From positions 1-62,507 of IMG/VR virus record IMGVR_UViG_3300036800_000162: DNA of 62,507 nt. One strand, 5' to 3'. The stretch is from a virus (taxonomy: Duplodnaviria > Caudoviricetes). How positions within the stretch are numbered: position 1 is the stretch's first letter; the number at the start of each line of letters is the position of its first letter. The translations under genes were made by a program, and so were the position numbers. Shown in pieces: positions 2,052 to 32,056 of the stretch. A model generated the notes under the pieces. The model saw nothing but the letters and a program-made list of their open reading frames with translations, was not told the origin of the DNA and searched no databases.

Positions 2052-3478
2052 GCGGCGCGCGCCTTCAGAGCGGCAATCTCGTCGTCCTGTTCCATGACAA
2101 TGCGCCACAGCACGGCCAGCATCTGCATGGGCGACAGGTGCAGCATCCCCTTATCGTCCGGCACCACCCCGCCAAACGGCACGCCGGCCTCAGCAAACGC
2201 CGCCTTGATAGCCGCGGCATCGAAGCCCCAGAGGTCATCACCGGTGAACCGGCCACCATCCGGCGCGTCGCGCCAGCCGTGCATGATCGGTGCCGCGGTA
2301 TGGAGCAGCGCCGATCTGACCGCTGGCGCTGGGCGGATGTTCGTCTTGGCGCGCGGGTCAGAGGTCTGGATCGTGCCGTTGACCGCCCAAACGAACGTCC
2401 AGCGGTTGGCGCTATCGCCGCAGGAATAGAGGTTGTCCGTCAGTGGGGCGGTATTGCTGCCCAGGAAGACACCAGCAGCGCCCTCGCCGGCAAAGAAGTT
2501 GTTGGAACTGTCCAGCCGCACGAGATTGAGGTCGGCGGTGTTGCCGGCGTTCCGCGACGCGATAGCCTGCTCGTTGCCGATGCGCAGGGGAATGGTCGTG
2601 CCGGACGGCGCGACCATGCTGATCGTGTCGATACCGTAGGTGTGCGTGCCCTGAATGTCGAGTGAGAGCGTGCTAACACCGAGGTCCTGGAACGACGCCT
2701 GCGCCACCGAGCCGTTGGTGATGACGATCCCGCGGTTCCAGATCGGGTGCGTCCCGAGACCGGAGATCGTCAGCGCGCCCGTCGAGCGGAACGCGCCGGC
2801 GCCAGTGATCGCCAGACCATACCCGACCGGAGCGGATAACCCCGCCGCACCAGGTGTATCGCCCGTGTCGGCGTTGTTGTTGTTGTAGTCTAGCTCGTAA
2901 CCATAGGCGTCTACCGAGCCGGCGCCAGGATCGATGGTGGTGACCGTGTTATAGGCCCATCCGGCGGTAGCGCCAGCCTGGACCACCATTCCGGCATAGA
3001 GCGTGACGTCGCCGCCATTCGGCAACCCGCCGCTGGCAACCCCGGTGGTCATGCCGAGGTTCACCAAGTACTCGCGGGTCGTGTTGCTGATCGCGTTGCC
3101 CTGCACAGAGAGCGATGACAACGTGGGGAGTTCATTGCCGGTCGGCAGCACGGAGAGCGCTTGCGTGCCGTTGACCAGCAGGGAGCCGAAGGCTTGGGTC
3201 AGGCGAACCCACGCGCCCTGCACCAGACCGTTCGGACGGATGATGTTGAGGCCGTCATCGGGCGCGGTTGACGTGGGCGACCAGCCGAAGAACCCTGCTT
3301 CGCCGTCGTCAAACGCAGTATCGCCGGTCAGCATTACGCACATATTCGATATGCCAACGAAGGCGCGCAGGTTTGCGACCAGCGAACCGCATTGCATCAG
3401 GCCATTCAGATAGGCGTCACTGATGACCGCAGTACCGTTGGCCTGCACCTGCAACGACGGTGGGAGATTGCCGCTCAT
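2048..3478 (-). CDS. Tail fibre/spike with C-terminal intramolecular chaperone (peptidase S74-like)
   Basis: NRWTFVWAVNGTIQTSDPRAKTNI motif and C-terminal coiled coil. Confidence 0.8.
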   Translation of the reverse strand: MSGNLPPSLQVQANGTAVISDAYLNGLMQCGSLVANLRAFVGISNMCVMLTGDTAFDDGEAGFFGWSPTSTAPDDGLNIIRPNGLVQGAWVRLTQAFGSLLVNGTQALSVLPTGNELPTLSSLSVQGNAISNTTREYLVNLGMTTGVASGGLPNGGDVTLYAGMVVQAGATAGWAYNTVTTIDPGAGSVDAYGYELDYNNNNADTGDTPGAAGLSAPVGYGLAITGAGAFRSTGALTISGLGTHPIWNRGIVITNGSVAQASFQDLGVSTLSLDIQGTHTYGIDTISMVAPSGTTIPLRIGNEQAIASRNAGNTADLNLVRLDSSNNFFAGEGAAGVFLGSNTAPLTDNLYSCGDSANRWTFVWAVNGTIQTSDPRAKTNIRPAPAVRSALLHTAAPIMHGWRDAPDGGRFTGDDLWGFDAAAIKAAFAEAGVPFGGVVPDDKGMLHLSPMQMLAVLWRIVMEQDDEIAALKARAA

Positions 3479-3490
3479 GGCGCGCCAGAC

Positions 3491-3526
3491 TACGCGGCGG
3501 CGATACCGATTTCCCGGTGTATCTAT
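3491..3526 (-). promoter_or_regulatory. Repeated upstream motif (candidate late promoter), copy 1
   Basis: Similar to 62341..62377 with one indel; both precede minus-strand tail genes. Confidence 0.4.
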
Positions 3527-3546
3527 CTACGAGTTTATGGACCTGC

Positions 3547-3699
3547 CTAGGCCCGGCGGCTGCGGCCTTTGCTGCGCTTGCTCGCGCGCTGCTGCCGGTA
3601 TGCTGCGGCGATCGCTTGTTTCTGCGGATGACCGCTTCGCACCATCTCGGCGATGTTGGCCGAGCGCGTGGCTTTCGACTTGCCTCTACGCAGCGGCAT
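3547..3699 (-). CDS. Small basic protein
   Basis: MPLRRGKSKATRSANIAEMVRSGHPQKQAIAAAY; type commonly seen in phage virion operons. Confidence 0.7.
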   Translation of the reverse strand: MPLRRGKSKATRSANIAEMVRSGHPQKQAIAAAYRQQRASKRSKGRSRRA

Positions 3700-4162
3700 G
3701 CGGCTTCTCCACCCGCGGCGACCGCTCAAGGGCCACCAACGGCAGCACGATCAGCACGGCATAGGCCGCCAGCACCCCGTCCGCCTGATAGGTTCCGGTG
3801 CGCAGCGCCAGCAGCGCCAGGACAAAGCCGCCAGCGACCGCCAGCAGCAGCAGAAAGCGGATCGCCAGCAAGGTCGCCACAGCATGCAGCGCGGCGTGCA
3901 GCCCCATCGTGCGGGCAACGATCACCGCTTCGGCGGCGGCGCGCACGGCGGTCTGTGCCACCGCCTGATGCGCCACGGCCATCTCCTCGCGCACCGCGCC
4001 GCGGATCGCCTCAAGCGGGATCGGGGGAGTCGGCAGCGGCGTCGGCGGCGGCTGCATCGTCGGGATCGAGGCTGGGGCGGTCCTCGCCGTTGGACCGAGG
4101 GGCACCACGGCCTCGCGCACCGTGGTAGGCTGCCAGGGACTGTTCAAATTCTGAGGTTCCAT
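3686..4162 (-). CDS. Membrane protein (2-3 TM)
   Basis: Hydrophobic C-terminal half; same strand as the operon. Confidence 0.55.
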   Translation of the reverse strand: MEPQNLNSPWQPTTVREAVVPLGPTARTAPASIPTMQPPPTPLPTPPIPLEAIRGAVREEMAVAHQAVAQTAVRAAAEAVIVARTMGLHAALHAVATLLAIRFLLLLAVAGGFVLALLALRTGTYQADGVLAAYAVLIVLPLVALERSPRVEKPHAAA

Positions 4163-26622: not shown

Positions 26623-26846
26623 GTCGGCTCCTTCGACTGACGTTCCATGGCCTGGTGACAGATGCGGCCGAGCAACAGCAGGCGCCGGCCATGCTCATCG
26701 ATGAACCTGGCTAGTTCCATGACCGGAACCAAGTTCTCGTAATCATCATCGACTGGCGCCTCTTGCGCCATATCCAGCAGCCGCTCGAAATCATCGAGCA
26801 TCACGCCGTCCGGCAACCGCTCCTGCGCGATATTGTCGTTGCTCAT
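26619..26846 (-). CDS. Hypothetical protein
   Basis: Coupled to the terminase stop. Confidence 0.55.
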   Translation of the reverse strand: MSNDNIAQERLPDGVMLDDFERLLDMAQEAPVDDDYENLVPVMELARFIDEHGRRLLLLGRICHQAMERQSKEPT

Positions 26847-28738
26847 GCCAAACCACGCTCCTCCATCCAGCGCTGCGCTGCGCCGGCTTCTTCGACCTGC
26901 CCGGCCTCGACCTGGCGTAGATACTGCTGCACGATCTGGTCCACCATATTGCCAGCCGGCCTGACGCCGGCTTCGCGCCACTCGCACGCGGCATAGGTCG
27001 CGCCCAGCATCAGCAGCGGGCCGCGCTCCTGCTGCACCCAACTGGTGTTGGCGAGACAGGCGGCGAATGTCCGATCGTCCTTGGCGCCGTTCGGTGCCTC
27101 GATCGACATGCCGTCCTGCACCACGATCTGCATCTCCTCCAACAGCGGCTTGGAGTTGATCACCAGCATTTCGTTGACGTGGCTGTCGCGGAACTCATTG
27201 AAGATGAACCGCTTGTTGTCGCCCGTCGTCAGGAAATTGGTCACATAGCCGGCCGAGGCCGGGTTATCCGGCCGGCGATACAGGTGATAGCGCGCATTGT
27301 CGAGGAAGTCCTCCAGGTCGCGTCCGTGGGCACCCCGCTTGGCGCGATAGACATCGCCGCGCAGGATCTCGCGCAGGTGGTCAAACTCTACCAGCACGGC
27401 CTTGCCATAGCCGCCGGAAAGCTCGATGTTGATGGTGCAGTTCTGATAGATGCCGGCGAGATAGGCCAGCACCCACGCCGCCTGGCGGGTCTCGGCGATG
27501 TTGTCGGCATACTCGGCAACCTGCACCAGCTTGTCGGCATAACATCTCCATACCGAAACGGCATGCCGGTCATTTTTCTCATCACTCCCGCCGGCCGGAT
27601 CGCAGCCAAGCACGTAGCGGCCGTCCGGGTGCGGCGGCACCCACATGCGCAACTGCACCTCATGCTGGCGCAGCACGTCGCCCGCCAGGTTCTCCACCCC
27701 GGCCGCCCAGAAGTCGTTGCCAAGCCAGAAGCGATACCCCTGATAGGCCACCCCCTCGCGCTCGATCCGCTCGTAGTCATGGGCGATGCGGCGCAGTTGG
27801 AAATAGGACTGCCCCGACATGACGAAGGCGTCTTCCTCGATCCAGGGTTGGTTCTGGTTCAGGGATGACTCGGTCTGGTGGTCCTTGCTGGCGCGCCAGC
27901 GGTGCCAGGCCAGTTGCTCCGGTGTTATCTCCCAGCCGTAGCGTTCCTTGACGACCTTGATCCGCGTCCGCTCGCGGTCATCCGGCTCGGCGAGGCCCCA
28001 GATGGCGAATAGCGGGCTGCTCCGCTTGATGCTGTTGGCTTCCTTGGCCCACCAGCCGACAAAGATGCAGCGGTTGGTGAACACGTCACCACGCGCGGCG
28101 AGCCAGCGCTGGCGCCAGTGATTGAAGCCCTTGGCCGTGCTTTCGTATACATAGAGGCGGTCGGGATTCTGTTCCGACATCGCCTCCTCGAAGTTGGTCA
28201 ACCCCTCCGGACTGCCGTAGTTCGCCACCTCGGTCAGCAGCACCAGGGAGAAACCCGACGACTCGCCCCACGCCACCTTGGTGCCGGACGTGCCGGCGAC
28301 CAGGAAGTTTAGTTGCGAGCCGTTACTGAACGCCATGAAGTACTTGTTGTCGCCGCCCTTTTTGATGGCGAAGGCGGCGCCGAAATACTTCAGCGGGATC
28401 GATGCGATGAGGTTGCGGATCTGCTCGCGGAAGTCATCCCGCGTCTTCTCCTGATCGACCACCAGCGCACCCTTCATGCCGGGGTGCAGCGCCAGCCAGA
28501 ACAGCGCGATGATGACGAAGATCGTTGTGCTGCCTAACTGACGCGACTTCAGCACGTAGAACCGGCGGATGCCCTCATCCATGCCGGCGGTTAGCTCCTC
28601 TAAAATACGCTGCTGCGAGCGCCAGAGCTTGATCTTGATGCCAGCCTCGCCGGGGGCGGCCGTCTCCTCGCGCGAGACGATGCGGAGGTTGTCAATAAAA
28701 CGTAACAGTAATGGGCGCCACTTTGGCGCGCTTGGCAT
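26843..28738 (-). CDS. terL: Terminase large subunit
   Basis: VLKSRQLGSTT Walker A, LLTEVA Walker B, ESTAKG coupling motif, YVLGCDPAGG nuclease, C-terminal KDDR. Confidence 0.92.
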   Translation of the reverse strand: MPSAPKWRPLLLRFIDNLRIVSREETAAPGEAGIKIKLWRSQQRILEELTAGMDEGIRRFYVLKSRQLGSTTIFVIIALFWLALHPGMKGALVVDQEKTRDDFREQIRNLIASIPLKYFGAAFAIKKGGDNKYFMAFSNGSQLNFLVAGTSGTKVAWGESSGFSLVLLTEVANYGSPEGLTNFEEAMSEQNPDRLYVYESTAKGFNHWRQRWLAARGDVFTNRCIFVGWWAKEANSIKRSSPLFAIWGLAEPDDRERTRIKVVKERYGWEITPEQLAWHRWRASKDHQTESSLNQNQPWIEEDAFVMSGQSYFQLRRIAHDYERIEREGVAYQGYRFWLGNDFWAAGVENLAGDVLRQHEVQLRMWVPPHPDGRYVLGCDPAGGSDEKNDRHAVSVWRCYADKLVQVAEYADNIAETRQAAWVLAYLAGIYQNCTINIELSGGYGKAVLVEFDHLREILRGDVYRAKRGAHGRDLEDFLDNARYHLYRRPDNPASAGYVTNFLTTGDNKRFIFNEFRDSHVNEMLVINSKPLLEEMQIVVQDGMSIEAPNGAKDDRTFAACLANTSWVQQERGPLLMLGATYAACEWREAGVRPAGNMVDQIVQQYLRQVEAGQVEEAGAAQRWMEERGLA

Positions 28739-29021
28739 CAGGCGGTCATGCTCATACGGCGCTATCCTGGCCGGCGATAGGTCGGGTCATAGCGGAATTG
28801 CCTCCCGCCGATCGGCGTGCGTTTGGCGTCGCGGTCCTCGGCACGCATCCATTCCAGTGCCGGGTGACGCTCCATCATGCGGATCGTGCGCTCGCACGTC
28901 GCCTGCACCTGCTCCGGCGTCAGCAGTCCAAGCGAGGTGTCGATCAAGCCGTCCCACTCCATAGGCGGTAGCGGCGAGCGGCGGCGCGTTTTCATTGTTC
29001 GCATCACGACCTCGACATACC

Positions 29022-29419
29022 ATGCCCACATGGACGACGACGCACCCGCCTGGCTCGGCTGGGCGTCAGGCAAGAACGCCTGGCACTTTCAGCGACGCTT
29101 GTGGGAGCGCTACGGACTGGTGCTGCAATTCGGCGCGTATTCAGAGATCCAGCGGTCAATCCGCAGCGGCGCCTGCCACCACATCGCGCGCGGCAAGCGT
29201 GATCACGTCTGGTTCGTGCCACTGCAAGGCCACATCATCGCCGTGGTCGCCGAGCCAATGACGTGCCGGCTGATCACGGTCCTGCCGCGTGACCTGCTGC
29301 AAGGCCGCTGCGTTAGGATCGCGGCGACCGCGCACGACAAGCCAAAGTCACCAGCAGAGCGTGTGTGGGATGACGCCACCGCGCGGCGGGACAGCGTCAC
29401 GGTGACAGCCGGGCAGTGA
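29022..29419 (+). CDS. Hypothetical protein
   Basis: HFQRRLWERYG...LITVLP; ends at a GC hairpin; start approximate. Confidence 0.5.
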
Positions 29420-29427
29420 ACGGTGGA

Positions 29428-29450
29428 CGCGGGGCATTGCCTACCCCGCG
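29428..29450. terminator. GC hairpin between convergent transcripts
   Basis: CGCGGGG-cattgccta-CCCCGCG; no clear U-tract. Confidence 0.4.
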
Positions 29451-29457
29451 CCCGATG

Positions 29458-29530
29458 TTTGGGTCGCCGGATTCGAACCAGCGACACCCAGATTACAATT
29501 CTGGTGCTCTACCAACTGAGCTAGACCCTT
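29458..29530 (-). tRNA. tRNA-Thr(UGU)-like with defective acceptor stem
   Basis: AAGGGTC TA GCTC-AGTTGGTA-GAGC A CCAGA-ATTGTAA-TCTGG GTGTC GCTGG-TTCGAAT-CCGGC GACCCAA A; A1.A72 and A2.A71 mismatches, A32, no CCA. Confidence 0.75.
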
Positions 29531-29548
29531 GGTTGCACACTGGGTTTC

Positions 29549-29669
29549 GCTGACGTGACACCTCATGCTGATCCGCACGCACGCCCACTGTGCTACGCTC
29601 CATCAGGGATGATGGCTGGAGCGGCCGGATTTGAACCGGCGTCTTGCGGTCTCGGGATGCCGTCGCAGC
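29549..29669 (-). ncRNA. Circularly permuted tRNA mimic (YrlA/Y-RNA-like)
   Basis: 5' stem, CCGCA, T-arm GCCGG-TTCAAAT-CCGGC, acceptor CGCTCCA/TGGAGCG closed by a 14-nt loop, D-arm GCAC/GTGC, TGCGG, 3' stem. Confidence 0.75.
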
Positions 29670-29697
29670 TAGTTCCAGATACGCATTTATAAAGCTA

Positions 29698-29755
29698 CAG
29701 GGCAAGACGCTGAAGCTGGCGCCTGAAGCTGACGATAAGGCTGAAGCTGGCCCTG
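29698..29755 (-). repeat. Stem-closed loop with three CAGCTTCAG repeats
   Basis: + strand ctgaagctg at 29710, 29723 and 29741; closing stem CAGGGC/GCCCTG. Confidence 0.8.
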
Positions 29756-29763
29756 GGGGCGGA

Positions 29764-29838
29764 TGGAGCCGCGGGCACGGAATTGAACCGGCATCAACCA
29801 CTGACAAGGTGGCTGCTCTAGCATTGAGCTACCGCGGC
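29764..29838 (-). tRNA. tRNA-Thr(UGU)-like, atypical
   Basis: GCCGCGG TA GCTC-AATGCTA-GAGC A GCCAC-CTTGTCA-GTGGT TGAT GCCGG-TTCAATT-CCGTGC CCGCGGC T CCA; no D-loop GG, C37, bulged T-stem. Confidence 0.75.
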
Positions 29839-29844
29839 AAACTC

Positions 29845-30609
29845 TTAGGCGACGATGCCATCATGCAGATACTCGAACAGCACCTTGCCGATCTGGCGCT
29901 TCTCGACCTCCGTGTTGTTGGCCCGCTGGCGCGCCCGCTTGACCGCACGCAGCAGCCGGTCAACGCGTTCCAACAACGCGCTTTTCTGCGCCGTGGTGAT
30001 CATGCCGCTGCGCCGCGTGGTGGCGATGCGTGCGATCGGGGCATCTTCCTGGATCGCCTGCACCTGCGCCGGGTGTTCCTTGGTCGCCTCGGCCATGATG
30101 ATCGGCTTGACCAGCCGCTTGGTGCGAAACGTCACATCCGGATCGCGCGCGCGATACACGCCGCCCCCAGTGCGGGCGTCGGCGTCCAACTCCCACACCG
30201 GACCTGGCGCCAGTGTCGGGATCGCCAGATATACCTCGCGCAACTCGGCCAGCTTGGCCTCCATCCCGAGCAACACAGCCCCCGGCACATTCTCGGCCAG
30301 CACACACTCGCCGACGACGATGTCGGCGACCGCCTTCTGGTTGGTCGCCTCGCGCTGCAAGAACGCGTCCAACGCCCGCACGTTCGGCCCGGCGTTGTAC
30401 AGCAGCTTGTCGAACACCGTAGTCACCATCGCGCTGGTCTCGGTGGTGTCCAGCTTGCGGTCATCCTCGGCGAAATACGTGACCGTCTTGACCGTTTCGA
30501 TGAAGTGCTCATCCTTCTTACCGAAGGTGCGCACCGTCTCCTCATTGGTCCGCCTCGCCGTGGTCTGCAAGCCGCTCTCCACGGCCAGCACTTCATGCAG
30601 CTTGGGCAT
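29845..30609 (-). CDS. Conserved helical protein (DUF7873-like, from memory) heading the ncRNA array
   Basis: KLHEVLAVE, NQKAVADIVV..VP..LLGME.KL, IPTLAP..W, EATKEHPAQVQ, AVKRARQRANNTEV. Confidence 0.7.
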   Translation of the reverse strand: MPKLHEVLAVESGLQTTARRTNEETVRTFGKKDEHFIETVKTVTYFAEDDRKLDTTETSAMVTTVFDKLLYNAGPNVRALDAFLQREATNQKAVADIVVGECVLAENVPGAVLLGMEAKLAELREVYLAIPTLAPGPVWELDADARTGGGVYRARDPDVTFRTKRLVKPIIMAEATKEHPAQVQAIQEDAPIARIATTRRSGMITTAQKSALLERVDRLLRAVKRARQRANNTEVEKRQIGKVLFEYLHDGIVA

Positions 30610-30640
30610 GGCGCGATCTCTCAATTGCCTTCACGGCAAC

Positions 30641-32056
30641 CTACATACTTGCGCCGCCGGCAGTGTCAACCCCCGCCGCCCACAACGCAAGGTCCGCAGT
30701 CACTTGCGTGATCACCGGCTGCCAGGCGCCGAGCGCCGGCTGGCGGTAGATCGTCATCGCCGGATACCACACCGTGCTCGTGCCGGCATTCAGCCAGCGC
30801 CAGCACCCGTTGGCCCGCGCCAGCAGCCAGGTCGGCACACCGAGGCTGGCCGCAAGATGCGCCACTGCGGTATCCACCGTGATCACCAGGTCAAGGCCGG
30901 CGACGACGCAGGCCGTGTCATACCAATCGTTGCACCCCCACTGTGTTAGATCCTCTTGCTGAAGCGAGATCCACGGCACCACGTCGGTGAGCGGGGCGAT
31001 CATCTCGCGAGAGATGCTGCGGCGCAGGTCGTCGGCGTGCGCCATCGGGTCATGCGCACGCGCGCCGCCGTGCCAGCATAGGCCGAGCCTGGCGCCGAGC
31101 CGGCGCGGCGCAACATGATATTCGGCCGGCGGCGGACGGGTCTCCAACGTCGTGGCGAACACCGCCGGCAGGCTCATCAGCGTGGTGACGATGTCATAAC
31201 CAGCCGCGTCTGCGGCGCTGCCGACGTGGGCCTCTGCCGCGGCCAGCAGACGCACCAGCGACTCCTGCGTCTCGACATGCACCACGGCGGCTAGTTGCTG
31301 CACCAGCGGAATATACCGGGCGAACTGGATGGTGTCGCCATAGCCTTGTTCCGAGCGCAGCAGCACGCGCTTGCCGCGCAGGCCCTCCGGCTGGCCGCAC
31401 CAGATCCGCGGCGGGACGTAATCCCACGGCGCGCCGAACGGCGGATGGCGCAGCACCGCCTGGCGCCGCTGCCATCCTTCCGTCCACCGACCGCCGCGCA
31501 ACAGGGTGAAACCGAGGCCCATCTCGGCCTCGGTGAACGCCGGGTCGATCTCCAACGCGCGGCGATATTCGTTCTCGGCCGAGGCGTCATTGCCGAACAG
31601 ACTAAGGCCGGTGCCGTAACCACACCGCACCTCGGCGTCCTTCGGCGCCAGCGCGGCGGCGTAGCCGTAGAGTGCCAGGCCAAGGGCGAAATGTTCGGTC
31701 AACAGACAGACATGCGCGAGCCGCACCAGCGCCTTGGTGCAGTTGGGATTGAGCGCCAGGCAGCGTTCGTAGCAAGCCGCCGCCGGCTCGAACTGCCCCA
31801 GCTTATGGTGGCAGAAGCCTTGGTTGTAATGCGCAGAGTAATCGAGCGGGCGGATGGTTCCGGCGGTTTTCAGCAAGCCGATCGCTGGTTCCCACTGGTG
31901 CTGCTTCATGTGCCAGTAGGCCGAGACCGACAGCAAGTCGAAGCGATCGGTATCACCGACACCGGCCAGCATATCCAGCAGATCACGCGAGGTAACGATG
32001 TCGCCGCGCGTGATCAGGTCATACGCGTCACGGACACTCCGGCTCGCCTCCGTCAC
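30641..32056 (-). CDS. TPR-repeat glycosyltransferase (GT9-like)
   Basis: TPRs, then SEQGYGDTIQFARY, LDLVITVDTAVAHLAASLGVP, WRW...WYP. Confidence 0.85.
   Translation of the reverse strand: MTEASRSVRDAYDLITRGDIVTSRDLLDMLAGVGDTDRFDLLSVSAYWHMKQHQWEPAIGLLKTAGTIRPLDYSAHYNQGFCHHKLGQFEPAAACYERCLALNPNCTKALVRLAHVCLLTEHFALGLALYGYAAALAPKDAEVRCGYGTGLSLFGNDASAENEYRRALEIDPAFTEAEMGLGFTLLRGGRWTEGWQRRQAVLRHPPFGAPWDYVPPRIWCGQPEGLRGKRVLLRSEQGYGDTIQFARYIPLVQQLAAVVHVETQESLVRLLAAAEAHVGSAADAAGYDIVTTLMSLPAVFATTLETRPPPAEYHVAPRRLGARLGLCWHGGARAHDPMAHADDLRRSISREMIAPLTDVVPWISLQQEDLTQWGCNDWYDTACVVAGLDLVITVDTAVAHLAASLGVPTWLLARANGCWRWLNAGTSTVWYPAMTIYRQPALGAWQPVITQVTADLALWAAGVDTAGGASM
30642..30669 (-). promoter_or_regulatory. 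Candidate sigma70 promoter for the protein+ncRNA locus
   Basis: TTGACA-16 nt-TATGTA about 33 nt upstream of ATG 30609. Confidence 0.4.

What the first reader, a model, noticed from the sequence alone, without database searches (positions are those of the whole stretch)
29698..29755. Three exact CAGCUUCAG repeats displayed in a stem-closed loop
Seen: three identical 9-mers separated by 9 and 4 nt inside a CAGGGC/GCCCTG stem, between the tRNA and the Y-like RNA. Inference: a multivalent protein-binding RNA, most simply for an oligomer of the upstream protein. It is conceptually like a type III antitoxin or CsrB-type sponge but does not match one I recognise.
Basis: partly seen in the sequence, partly recalled or inferred. 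Interest (0 to 1): 0.7.

Follow-up and report, generated by a model that had tools for sequence, protein, structure and literature searches.

The report
Six-base repeat loop of phage tRNA-mimic RNA
The three repeats are real and form the front module of a widespread, apparently undescribed phage RNA that joins a loop of six-base repeats to a back-to-front tRNA look-alike and always follows a gene of unknown function, so the loop is most likely a docking strip for a multi-part protein.

Summary
Observation confirmed. On the minus strand, CAGGGC/GCCCUG (29755-29750 / 29703-29698) closes a 46-nt loop with three exact CAGCUUCAG copies, 9 and 4 nt apart.

The true unit is a hexamer, Y-A-G-N-N-U. 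The hairpin ("P1") is the 5' module of a conserved ncRNA that follows DUF7873 genes: P1, spacer, long stem, then a circularly permuted tRNA-like core with encoded NCCA.
- My model of that core hits at >=45 bits downstream of the gene in 70 of 80 IMG/VR loci (23 were training rows), against 0 of 69 unrelated viral loci. It also hits 4 of 4 cultured phages tested.
- In 48 curated P1 loops, lag-6 identity is 0.438 against 0.268+-0.011, with no lag-3 signal. YAG pairs 6 nt apart number 64 against 3.8+-2.0.
- No reading frame ends consistently.

Best reading (about 0.45): a multivalent single-strand platform read by an oligomeric protein, most simply DUF7873, which is predicted to be a homodimer (0.72 against control 0.00). 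Binding is not shown.

It is not a member of Rfam YrlA, and the phage has no Ro60 gene. It is not a tmRNA either. I found no paper on it. This scan had already noted the same module in at least 44 other genomes.

The parts
29845..30624 (-). DUF7873 gene. The ORF is called from TTG at 30624; the likely start is ATG at 30609, since the Pfam match and the Atlas record both begin at residue 6.
   Evidence: Pfam PF25283, E 1.3e-70, residues 6-254; Atlas note; 749 homologues at E<=1e-3
29764..29838 (-). tRNA-Thr(UGU)-like gene with encoded CCA, 6 nt after the DUF7873 stop. This is a clade-specific insert: it is present in L074, L075 and L076 but absent between gene and hairpin in most other loci.
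   Evidence: ARAGORN; Rfam tRNA 50.2 bits; sequences
29698..29755 (-). P1 hairpin, the finding itself. The 6-bp stem CAGGGC/GCCCUG closes a 46-nt loop made of Y-A-G-N-N-U hexamers.
   Evidence: family alignment A3 and pair counts; periodicity
29741..29749 (-). CAGCUUCAG copy 1; it starts directly after the 5' stem strand
29723..29731 (-). CAGCUUCAG copy 2
29710..29718 (-). CAGCUUCAG copy 3, shifted by one base relative to the hexamer register of copies 1 and 2
29686..29697 (-). Two more hexamer-like units (UAGCUU UAUAAA) directly after the stem. A unit in this place is seen in most relatives (ACAGCUUCAGG, UAGCUUUAG and similar).
29659..29672 (-). 5' strand of the long stem (P2) that closes the tRNA-like unit
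   Evidence: RNAalifold on 13 sequences: 10 pairs, all with compensatory changes
29570..29652 (-). Circularly permuted tRNA-like core, in the order: anticodon-stem 3' strand, variable loop, T-arm, acceptor 3' strand, G-CCA, loop, acceptor 5' strand, D-arm, anticodon-stem 5' strand
   Evidence: Model R1, 73.1 bits; covariation 92.5% paired, 20 of 21 pairs with double changes
29545..29559 (-). 3' strand of P2, ending in ..CAGCG-AAA; this 3' motif recurs in relatives
29457..29530 (-). tRNA-Thr(UGU) that ends the array. The same gene carries a UAA anticodon in the 97%-identical relative L074.
29425..29453 (-). GC-rich hairpin after the last tRNA. Relatives carry a hairpin here with a similar purine-rich loop. 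It was not called as a terminator by the scan.

Best explanation
The hairpin is the 5' module (P1) of a conserved phage non-coding RNA that is encoded directly downstream of DUF7873 genes. P1 is a short, GGG/CCC-rich stem that holds open a single-stranded loop. The loop is made of hexamers of the form Y-A-G-N-N-U, that is, a U-Y-A-G tetranucleotide repeated every six bases with two free spacer bases, and the register is fixed relative to the stem. The window has 7 such units in the loop plus 1-2 after the stem.

About 45-55 nt further on, a long stem closes a back-to-front tRNA look-alike. Its acceptor stem carries an encoded N-CCA followed by an A/U-rich leader. This suggests cutting by RNase P and a tRNA-like 3' end, as was shown for Mycobacterium smegmatis YrlA.

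I infer that the hexamer array is a multivalent docking strip in which each repeat is read by one subunit or repeat of an oligomeric protein. The most likely reader is the co-encoded DUF7873 protein, which is predicted to be a homodimer and has an invariant arginine-rich helix. In that model the tRNA-like module engages tRNA-handling machinery, giving a Y-RNA-like ribonucleoprotein without Ro60.

Shown: the anatomy, the periodicity, the conservation and the gene linkage.
For: (1) The repeats are real and non-random.
(2) Family-wide periodicity. In 48 curated P1 loops, lag-6 identity is 0.438, lag-12 0.372 and lag-18 0.341, against 0.267 +- 0.01 in shuffles. Lags 3, 9 and 15 are at or below background. 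YAG pairs at distance 6 number 64 against 3.8 +- 2.0, and at distance 12 they number 38 against 3.6; other distances give 2-6.
(3) Unfiltered test on all 70 loci: 36 of 70 reach p<=0.05, against 9 of 69 control segments taken inside the gene.
(4) Position profile: A at position 2 in 68%, U at position 6 in 64%, a pyrimidine at position 1 in 71%, G at position 3 in 46%; positions 4 and 5 are near-uniform (phase-fitted). A MAFFT alignment that was not phase-fitted shows the same register anchored to the stem.
(5) The stem covaries: 77% of cells paired, 13 double-change cells against 5.1 in shuffles, 0 of 500 shuffles as high.
(6) Linkage. The permuted tRNA-like core scores >=45 bits downstream of the DUF7873 gene in 70 of 80 loci (23 of those were training rows), against 0 of 69 unrelated viral loci, where the best hit is 21.7 bits. 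It is also found in Rhizobium, Klebsiella, Vibrio and Gordonia phages, 4 of 4 tested.
(7) DUF7873 self-association: the model supports binding but does not show it. The score is 0.72 and the best of 3 controls is 0.00. That mark was reached by 20 of 30 proteins solved as pairs of one chain and by 1 of 23 solved as single chains. The runs agree in >=98% of contacts and the partner pLDDT is >=88.
(8) K229, A231, Q233, R234, A235 and N236 are invariant, and R226 and R232 nearly so, in 22 homologues.
(9) The motif persists in phages of Proteobacteria and Actinobacteria. Its reader must therefore be phage-encoded or universal.
Against: No binding data of any kind exist, and the tools here cannot co-fold RNA with protein.
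- A dimer does not by itself explain 7-9 repeats.
- No internal repeats were detectable in DUF7873.
- The protein fold matches nothing informative.
- The linkage to DUF7873 is partly by construction, because I only fetched loci that contain it.
- P1 stems are no more stable than stems found in shuffled sequence (11 of 70 at p<=0.05).
- The 48 'curated' loops were chosen partly by eye, and 34 of 70 loci are not individually significant for period 6.
- Expression could not be checked.
Confidence: 0.45

Rival explanations
1. Same RNA module, but the hexamer array is read by a conserved host factor rather than by DUF7873. Candidates are the KH/S1 domains of trimeric PNPase (as in Ro60-Y RNA-PNPase particles), ribosomal protein S1, NusA or RNase E. 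P1 would then be the effector-tethering or decoy part, and DUF7873 would bind elsewhere, for instance on the long stem.
For: The U-Y-A-G core is kept in phages of very different hosts, as expected for a universal host reader. Y RNAs tether PNPase through a separate module (PMC4201824, passages read). A four-base motif is the size read by single KH-type domains (recalled, not tested). DUF7873 shows no internal repeats.
Against: No host factor was tested or can be named from the data. Hfq is an unlikely candidate because actinobacterial hosts lack it (recalled). DUF7873 is the only partner with any positional evidence.
Confidence: 0.2
2. The loop is an mRNA-like template. The RNA would be a tmRNA-like, two-piece, aminoacylatable molecule whose start-codon-less frame (AGN-NUY, alternating Ser/Arg/Lys and hydrophobic residues) is added to stalled nascent chains.
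For: The topology equals a tmRNA opened between helix 2a and the tag frame: the order is frame, stem strand, T-arm, acceptor 3' strand, CCA. N-CCA plus a leader ending in U before the 5' acceptor strand is present in the 24 aligned units. One frame is open across the repeats and gives beta-strand-like peptides of median 16.5 residues. The single window/L074 difference inside the loop is synonymous in that frame. Weak Rfam hits to permuted and beta tmRNA models (11.9 and 10.4 bits) fall on the T-arm/acceptor part.
Against: There is no lag-3 periodicity. No frame has a consistently placed stop: the stop lies inside P1 in 34 of 48 loops for that frame and in 37 and 42 of 48 for the other two frames, and 2 of 48 loops run open into the tRNA-like core. 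The conserved Y at position 1 and A at position 2 would be third-codon positions in the two open frames, which coding does not explain. G3:U70, the alanine identity pair of tmRNA, is present in 0 of 24 units (pair 39-67). The D-arm and anticodon stem are canonical, unlike tmRNA. ARAGORN calls no tmRNA here.
Confidence: 0.08
3. The repeats have no sequence-specific reader. They would be slippage-generated low-complexity filler that keeps a flexible single-stranded spacer or loop of a given length, or they would pair with another RNA.
For: Exact copies in the window suggest recent duplication. The exact 9-mers are not conserved in the 74% relative. Loop length varies from about 45 to over 100 nt, with inserted hairpins or even a second tRNA-like unit.
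Against: Slippage alone would homogenise all six positions, yet positions 4 and 5 are near-random while positions 1, 2, 3 and 6 are kept across distant phages. The register relative to the stem is conserved. Antisense copies of the hexamers are not enriched at the neighbouring gene start (11 against 8.8 +- 2.8), and the window has no cluster of complementary repeats.
Confidence: 0.1
4. A DNA-level site (iterons, a packaging or replication protein binding site) that merely lies between RNA genes, near the terminase gene.
For: Short direct repeats lie upstream of the large terminase gene (26843-28738).
Against: The motif is always on the sense strand of the RNA/DUF7873 unit: all high-scoring core hits are on the gene's strand in the 80 oriented loci. 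It sits at a fixed distance (about 43-56 nt) from the tRNA-like core and is enclosed by a covarying RNA stem. Neighbouring genes other than DUF7873 differ between loci, and in many it lies inside tRNA arrays, not near terminase. A 6-bp period does not match the DNA helical repeat.
Confidence: 0.03

Closest known systems
YrlA-class bacterial and phage Y RNAs bound by Ro60/Rsr (Rfam RF02553; Chen et al. 2014, PMC4201824, passages read), especially the M. smegmatis form
   Same: Both are non-coding RNAs encoded next to their protein partner on the same strand. Both have a tRNA-like module in the same permuted order (variable, T-arm, acceptor stem, D-arm) closed by a stem formed from the RNA's flanks. 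M. smegmatis YrlA has a 7-bp acceptor stem and is cut by RNase P and given CCA in vivo, which is what the encoded N-CCA and leader here predict. Both have a modular build with a separate protein-binding part.
   Different: No match to the RF02553 model: the best hit is 11.2 bits against a gathering score of 69, and it does not fall on the permuted unit. The complete 62.5-kb phage has no TROVE/Ro60 gene. The GNCGAA motif is absent from the RNA. The neighbour is DUF7873. The hexamer-repeat hairpin has no counterpart in the YrlA description I read.
TRAP-trp leader and HutP-hut mRNA recognition in Bacillus (recalled from memory: TRAP, an 11-mer ring, binds 11 (G/U)AG triplets separated by 2-3 nt; HutP, a hexamer, binds NAG triplets separated by 4 nt)
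   Same: Both are single-stranded arrays of NAG-type triplets at a constant short spacing with free spacer bases. This is the signature of one repeat per subunit of an oligomer.
   Different: No TrpBP (PF02081) or HutP (PF09021) homologue is in the phage. The spacing here is strictly 6 and the conserved core is 4 bases (U-Y-A-G). There are 7-9 units held in a stem-closed loop, attached to a tRNA mimic. This is not an attenuator in an mRNA leader.
Two-piece (circularly permuted) tmRNA of alpha-proteobacteria, some beta-proteobacteria and cyanobacteria (recalled: Keiler et al. 2000)
   Same: Both have a permuted gene order in which the T-arm, acceptor 3' strand and CCA lie upstream of the acceptor 5' strand. 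Processing into two pieces is expected in both.
   Different: This RNA has a canonical D-arm and anticodon stem, no G3:U70 (0 of 24), no pseudoknots called, and no consistent tag frame. ARAGORN or Rfam find it only at 10-12 bits.
   Same: All are RNAs with several copies of a short protein-binding motif. ToxI is also encoded beside its protein partner.
   Different: CsrB displays GGA in many separate small hairpin loops, whereas here one large loop carries U-Y-A-G at a 6-nt pitch. ToxI repeats are about 36 nt, lie upstream of the toxin gene and are cut by it, whereas here the repeats are 6 nt and downstream. DUF7873 matches no toxin family.

Membership tests
YrlA / Y RNA (Rfam RF02553) | Scores at or above the family covariance model's gathering score (69 bits) | tested here: not met
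   Best 11.2 bits, at 29506-29523 on a tRNA and not on the permuted unit. No YrlA row at E<=10 in the 651-nt scan.
YrlA / Y RNA (Rfam RF02553) | Encoded near, and bound by, a Ro60/Rsr (TROVE) protein | tested here: not met
   PF05731 gives 0 matches in the whole record, which CheckV rates 100% complete. The control rang in Deinococcus and Bacteroides.
YrlA / Y RNA (Rfam RF02553) | tRNA-like module in the order V, T-arm, acceptor stem, D-arm, closed by the RNA's flanks | tested here: met
   Alignment A2 with covariation: 92.5% paired, 20 of 21 pairs with double changes, 0 of 500 shuffles as high. The T and acceptor pairing were required by my scanner; the D-arm only by a loose pattern; the anticodon stem not at all. 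RNAalifold finds the same helices plus the closing stem.
YrlA / Y RNA (Rfam RF02553) | GNCGAAN0-1G motif near the 5' end (PMC4201824) | tested here: not met
   None of the 8 GNCGAA matches in the 3-kb locus falls inside the RNA. A different motif..AGCGAAA, sits on the 3' strand of the closing stem.
tmRNA (one-piece or permuted) | Detected by ARAGORN or Rfam tmRNA models | tested here: not met
   ARAGORN finds 3 tRNAs and no tmRNA. tmRNA_permuted scores 11.9 bits against 47, and beta_tmRNA 10.4 against 84.
tmRNA (one-piece or permuted) | G3:U70 alanine identity pair in the acceptor stem | tested here: not met
   0 of 24 aligned units have U:G at columns 39-67. The pair types seen are GC 10, CG 8, AU 4, UA 2.
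tmRNA (one-piece or permuted) | Internal tag reading frame ending in a stop at a conserved place | tested here: not met
   None of the three frames ends consistently in 48 loops, and there is no lag-3 periodicity.
TRAP / HutP type NAG-repeat RNA targets | NAG triplets at constant short spacing with unconstrained spacers | tested here: met
   YAG pairs at distance 6 number 64 against 3.8 +- 2.0, and at distance 12 they number 38 against 3.6. Positions 4 and 5 are near-uniform.
TRAP / HutP type NAG-repeat RNA targets | Cognate TRAP (PF02081) or HutP (PF09021) protein | tested here: not met
   0 matches in the phage record for either family. Controls rang in Bacillus subtilis. The host genome is unknown and was not searched.
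Type III toxin-antitoxin (ToxIN-like) | Tandem repeats of about 36 nt upstream of an endoribonuclease toxin gene that cuts them | tested here: not met
   The repeats are 6-9 nt and lie downstream of the gene. The neighbour matches only DUF7873 in Pfam and nothing in PHROGs. PADLOC was not searched.
CsrB/RsmZ sponge | Many GGA motifs presented in small hairpin loops | tested here: not met
   The motif here is U-Y-A-G in one large loop. No Rfam CsrB/RsmZ hit.
DUF7873-linked hexamer + permuted-tRNA RNA (unnamed family defined here and in earlier notes of this scan) | Directly downstream of a DUF7873 gene on the same strand; a stem-closed hexamer loop; a permuted tRNA-like core 43-56 nt after the stem | tested here: met
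   Pfam E 1.3e-70. P1 ends 47 nt before the core. The core scores 73.1 bits.

The most novel reading that the evidence does not exclude
The hexamer loop is the ruler of a new class of phage ribonucleoprotein. DUF7873 subunits would line up on U-Y-A-G repeats every six bases (TRAP-like reading, unrelated protein). They would sit on a two-piece, CCA-ended tRNA mimic that is made by RNase P, independently of Ro60. The particle would present a chargeable tRNA-like end to the host's translation or tRNA-surveillance machinery, for instance as a decoy or adaptor against tRNA-directed defences. This would be a third kind of tRNA-mimic particle beside tmRNA-SmpB and Y RNA-Ro60.
Probability: 0.3. Interest if true: 0.85.

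Novelty: new variant of a known kind. Interest (0 to 1): 0.68.

Why it matters
Phage tRNA regions are usually read as plain tRNA supplies. Here a gene of unknown function and a structured RNA travel together in phages of Rhizobium, Vibrio, Klebsiella/Serratia, Ralstonia, Gordonia, Arthrobacter, Rhodococcus and cyanobacteria. In GenBank records the RNA is unannotated, covered by small hypothetical CDSs, or called a suppressor tRNA.

The hexamer loop is the most tractable handle on this particle. It gives a defined motif (U-Y-A-G at a pitch of six), a testable partner, and cultured non-pathogen systems in which to test it.

If the platform model holds, it extends the Y-RNA principle (a tRNA mimic plus a protein-docking module) to a Ro60-free family. 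It also adds a second, unrelated example of TRAP-like repeat reading.

Tried and rejected
Exact-pattern scan. A 17-mer pattern taken from the hairpin start was scanned over IMG/VR. It matched 70 stretches, but only 3 loci (2 contigs: L001/L048 and L002) have the hairpin; the other 67 are chance matches in unrelated sequence. The hairpin sequence itself is therefore clade-specific, and I switched to protein-anchored loci.

Protein clues for DUF7873. All of these were uninformative:
- PHROGs: none.
- NCBIfam: only a 0.17 E-value noise hit.
- Foldseek against PDB: nothing at E<=1e-3.
- VIA-align: best is 3kdq_A, Z 9.0, rmsd 7.8, 148 aligned, a protein of unknown function; the rest are helical-hairpin matches.
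- Profile against PDB sequences: 0 at E<=10.
- ESM Atlas: only DUF7873 clusters.
- hhalign of four slices of the family alignment against each other: no internal repeat, all probabilities below 1%.

Reading frames. All three frames were translated across 48 loops and no frame terminates consistently. The tag-template idea was therefore demoted.

Operator or antisense idea. Sense and antisense copies of each locus's own hexamers around the DUF7873 start were not above the permuted-locus control.

Stem stability. P1-zone stems score no better than stems in shuffled sequence (11 of 70 at p<=0.05; median 16 against 14.6). The case for the stem rests on position, conserved GGG/CCC and covariation only.

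Promoter and terminator scan of 29350-30800. It found 0 promoter-like sites and no minus-strand terminator.

Neighbour conservation. The TPR/glycosyltransferase-9-like protein upstream (30641-32056) recurs only in L074, 1 of 84 loci by tblastn.

TRAP and HutP families are absent from the phage.

Sequencing runs. 3 DNA soil-metagenome runs were listed and no RNA holder was listed.

Literature.
- 'DUF7873': 0 papers.
- 'permuted tRNA' plus phage: 9 papers, none on this by title or abstract listing.
- YrlA, tRNA-like, phage: 2 papers, of which I read passages of PMC4201824.
- tRNA-mimic terms: 14 papers. The 2026 preprint on three tRNA-mimic families was seen as abstract and outline only; it concerns skipping-rope, DUF2693-FD and salivarius-1 RNAs.
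- Ro60 / Y RNA / phage terms: 2 papers.
- Supplementary tables of PMC4201824, which list phage YrlA hits, could not be seen and might include relatives.

Rows dropped. For some searches, 22 of 70 loci were left out: L074, L078, L079, L080, L087, L111, L114, L118, L120, L122, L123, L125, L126, L134-L139, L145, L148 and L150. The reasons were that the automatic stem call looked wrong by eye, that the loop held inserted tRNA-like units, or near-identity to the window (L074). One search used all 70. Several loci are duplicates of one another (L083=L084=L085, L107=L124, L132=L133, L139=L140).
Full report
OBSERVATION. On the minus strand the window reads: CAGGGC (29755-29750), CAGCUUCAG, 9 nt, CAGCUUCAG, 4 nt, CAGCUUCAG, 6 nt, GCCCUG (29703-29698). 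The 9-mer occurs 6 times in the 62,507-base window against 0.43 +- 0.62 expected, and none of 100 shuffles reaches 6. Three of the six copies are in this hairpin. Folded alone, the 69-nt stretch has an MFE of -20.1 kcal/mol and a z-score of -0.93, and 25 of 200 shuffles fold as well. The centroid keeps only the closing stem. The stem therefore probably holds an open loop, and thermodynamics alone does not single it out. The refinement is that the loop is a run of hexamers (CAGCUU CAGCCU UAUCGU CAGCUU CAGGCG, one extra C, CAGCUU CAGCGU), followed by two more hexamer-like units after the stem.

CONTEXT IN THE WINDOW. The record is a virus record rated 100% complete. On the minus strand the order is:
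- a DUF7873 gene (29845-30624; Pfam PF25283, E 1.3e-70);
- a tRNA-Thr(UGU)-like gene with encoded CCA (29838-29764);
- the hairpin;
- a circularly permuted tRNA-like unit;
- a second tRNA-Thr(UGU) (29530-29457);
- a GC hairpin;
- further on, the large terminase gene (26843-28738).
Rfam at gathering thresholds finds only the three tRNAs. At E<=10 the region gives only weak tmRNA-type hits (10-12 bits) on the T-arm/acceptor part.

RELATIVES. DUF7873 has 749 homologues at E<=1e-3. A profile-guided scan of IMG/VR confirmed 306 loci and kept the best 80, L074-L153.

By eye and with a simple scanner, most of these loci carry, 100-300 nt after the gene, a unit in this order: T-arm, 7-nt acceptor 3' strand, N-CCA, an A/U-rich loop that often ends in UAU, the complementary acceptor 5' strand, and a canonical D-arm.

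I aligned 24 such units. The four helices are paired in 92.5% of cells, 20 of 21 pairs show changes on both sides, and 0 of 500 shuffles reach the observed score. A caveat applies: T-arm and acceptor pairing were required by the scanner. The anticodon-stem equivalent, which was not required, is paired in 70.8% of cells and all 5 of its pairs covary.

The covariance model R1 scores >=45 bits downstream of the gene in 70 of the 80 loci. Of these, 23 were training rows, so 47 are independent.
- The ten misses are L077 and L131 (too little flank), L089 (the unit is interrupted), L122, L123, L136 and L138 (34-42 bits), L141 (its hit lies upstream of the gene), and L152 and L153.
- In 69 unrelated viral loci (578 kb), fetched by chance, the best hit is 21.7 bits.
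- R1 also hits Rhizobium phage RHph_Y65 (65.3 bits), Klebsiella phage vB_KpM_FBKp24 (55.6), Vibrio phage D520 (50.8) and Gordonia phage Ronaldo (47.5). In those records the stretch is unannotated, covered by small hypothetical CDSs, or called 'tRNA-Sup-TTA'.
RNAalifold on 13 sequences independently predicts the T, acceptor and D helices plus a 10-pair closing stem with compensatory changes.

THE HAIRPIN IN THE FAMILY. A stem that usually reads GGGNN.../...NNCCC ends 43-56 nt before the R1 hit in most loci. It encloses 45 to over 100 nt. The 5' part of the loop, and often the 3' part and the first bases after the stem, consist of hexamers.

In 48 curated loops (22 of 70 loci were dropped; they are listed under Tried and rejected), identity at lag 6 is 0.438, at lag 12 it is 0.372 and at lag 18 it is 0.341, against 0.267 +- 0.01 for shuffles. 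Lags 3, 9 and 15 are 0.251-0.259. YAG triplets 6 nt apart occur 64 times against 3.8 +- 2.0 (shuffle maximum 11), and 12 nt apart 38 times against 3.6. Distances 3-5 and 7-11 give 2-6 each.

With the phase fitted, the unit is Y (71%), A (68%), G (46%), N, N, U (64%). A MAFFT alignment of 14 modules, which was not phase-fitted, shows the same A and U columns every six positions, anchored to the stem.

On that alignment the 7-pair stem is paired in 77% of cells. It has 13 double-change cells against 5.1 in shuffles, with 0 of 500 shuffles as high, and it beats all slid registers. The rows were chosen by a stem finder, so this result leans towards the stem.

Two results count against over-reading.
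- P1-zone stems are energetically no better than stems in shuffled sequence (11 of 70 at p<=0.05).
- On all 70 loci unfiltered, period 6 is individually significant in 36 (p<=0.05), against 9 of 69 control segments inside the gene.

The exact triple 9-mer is kept in L074 (97% protein identity), with one spacer change. It is not kept in L075 (74%), where only the first copy and the hexamer register survive.

CODING OR DOCKING? Two of the three frames are open across the repeats and give alternating peptides. The RNA's topology equals a tmRNA opened just before its tag frame. I therefore tested the template idea. The results:
- There is no lag-3 signal.
- No frame has a consistently placed stop.
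- The conserved Y1 and A2 would be third-codon positions in the two open frames.
- G3:U70 is present in 0 of 24 units.
- ARAGORN calls no tmRNA.
The pattern is four read positions (U-Y-A-G across the unit boundary) plus two free positions at a fixed pitch. That is what a repeat-per-subunit protein site looks like. From memory, TRAP and HutP of Bacillus read NAG triplets in this way, but neither family is in the phage.

WHO READS IT? DUF7873 is the only constant neighbour. The upstream TPR protein recurs in 1 of 84 loci. For two copies of DUF7873, the model supports binding but does not show it:
- The score is 0.72 and the best of 3 controls is 0.00.
- That mark was reached by 20 of 30 proteins solved as pairs of one chain and by 1 of 23 solved as single chains.
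- The runs agree in >=98% of contacts and the partner pLDDT is >=88.
- My own alignment was used, so the calibration counts hold only roughly.
The family has an invariant basic stretch, K229-N236. However, the fold matches nothing informative, there are no internal repeats, and the hexamers do not recur at the gene's own start. The motif is kept in phages of Proteobacteria and Actinobacteria, which fits either a phage-encoded reader or a universal host reader. Expression could not be examined (see Tried and rejected).

COMPARISON. The closest known relatives are YrlA-type Y RNAs.
- Same: the permuted tRNA-like order and a neighbouring protein partner. [quoted passage not shown]
- Membership fails on the Rfam model (11.2 bits against 69), on Ro60 and on the GNCGAA motif.
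It works like a Y RNA in build, but it is not a YrlA family member. The hexamer hairpin has no counterpart in what I read of that paper.

NOVELTY AND PRIOR NOTES. Five literature searches found nothing on this gene-RNA pair. The supplements of the YrlA paper could not be read. This scan's own index holds 50 notes in at least 44 other genomes that describe the same DUF7873 + hexamer + permuted-tRNA module, with follow-ups reaching a similar reading. I consulted these after my own analysis. One lead, that hexamers flank the protein's ribosome-binding site, was tested here and did not generalise. The finding is therefore a new member, in this window, of a family that appears undescribed in print. 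What this report adds is the six-base pitch, the four-base core, the fixed register relative to the stem, and the test against coding.

VERDICT. The element is real, conserved and of unknown function. It is best described as the repeat-docking module of a Ro60-independent, Y-RNA-like phage particle.

Noticed in passing
window 29457-29530 (-) and 29764-29838 (-); L001/L074: Between the window and a relative with 97% identical DUF7873, both flanking tRNAs differ in the anticodon loop. The downstream tRNA is UGU (Thr) here and UAA (Leu) there. The upstream one is UGU here and CGU there and in L075/L076. The upstream tRNA also has C at position 37.
   Followed up: partly
window 29425-29453 (-); same place in L075, L076, L083, L088, L095, L102, L107, L128: After the last tRNA of the array, many loci carry a GC-rich hairpin whose loop has a similar purine-rich sequence (GGAAGG..AUCC-like; UAGGCAAU in the window). 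It may be more than a terminator. The terminator scan did not call it.
   Followed up: no
L156 (Klebsiella phage vB_KpM_FBKp24) 2363-2438 and 2557-2657; L139/L140; L150: In some phages the hexamer loop itself contains a second permuted tRNA-like unit with a long-arm (class II-like) D region, so the RNA has two 'heads'. In FBKp24, part of the array is annotated as a suppressor tRNA (tRNA-Sup-TTA).
   Followed up: partly
L089 about 3265-3700: The RNA appears interrupted. The hexamer hairpin, T-arm, acceptor 3' strand and CCA are present, but a protein-coding stretch follows in place of the 5' acceptor strand and D-arm. R1 gives no hit there.
   Followed up: no
L112 5017-5407; L120 5029-5376: ARAGORN calls ordinary tmRNA genes about 1.7 kb downstream of the DUF7873 gene in two loci. 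Some of these phages therefore carry both a tmRNA and the DUF7873-linked RNA.
   Followed up: no
window 29845-30624 (-), protein residues 226-236: DUF7873 has an invariant basic stretch (K229, A231, Q233, R234, A235, N236; R226 and R232 nearly invariant) on a long helix. These residues are not among the predicted dimer contacts. It is a candidate nucleic-acid-binding surface.
   Followed up: partly
window 30641-32056 (-): Upstream of DUF7873 lies a 471-aa protein with TPR repeats and a weak glycosyltransferase-9 match (E 5e-4). Gordonia phage Ronaldo also has a glycosyltransferase directly upstream of its DUF7873 gene, but by tblastn the window's protein recurs only in L074.
   Followed up: partly
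window 28877-29419 (+): A 180-codon plus-strand ORF between the RNA array and the terminase gene matches nothing in Pfam, PHROGs or NCBIfam. Its coding status is unknown.
   Followed up: no
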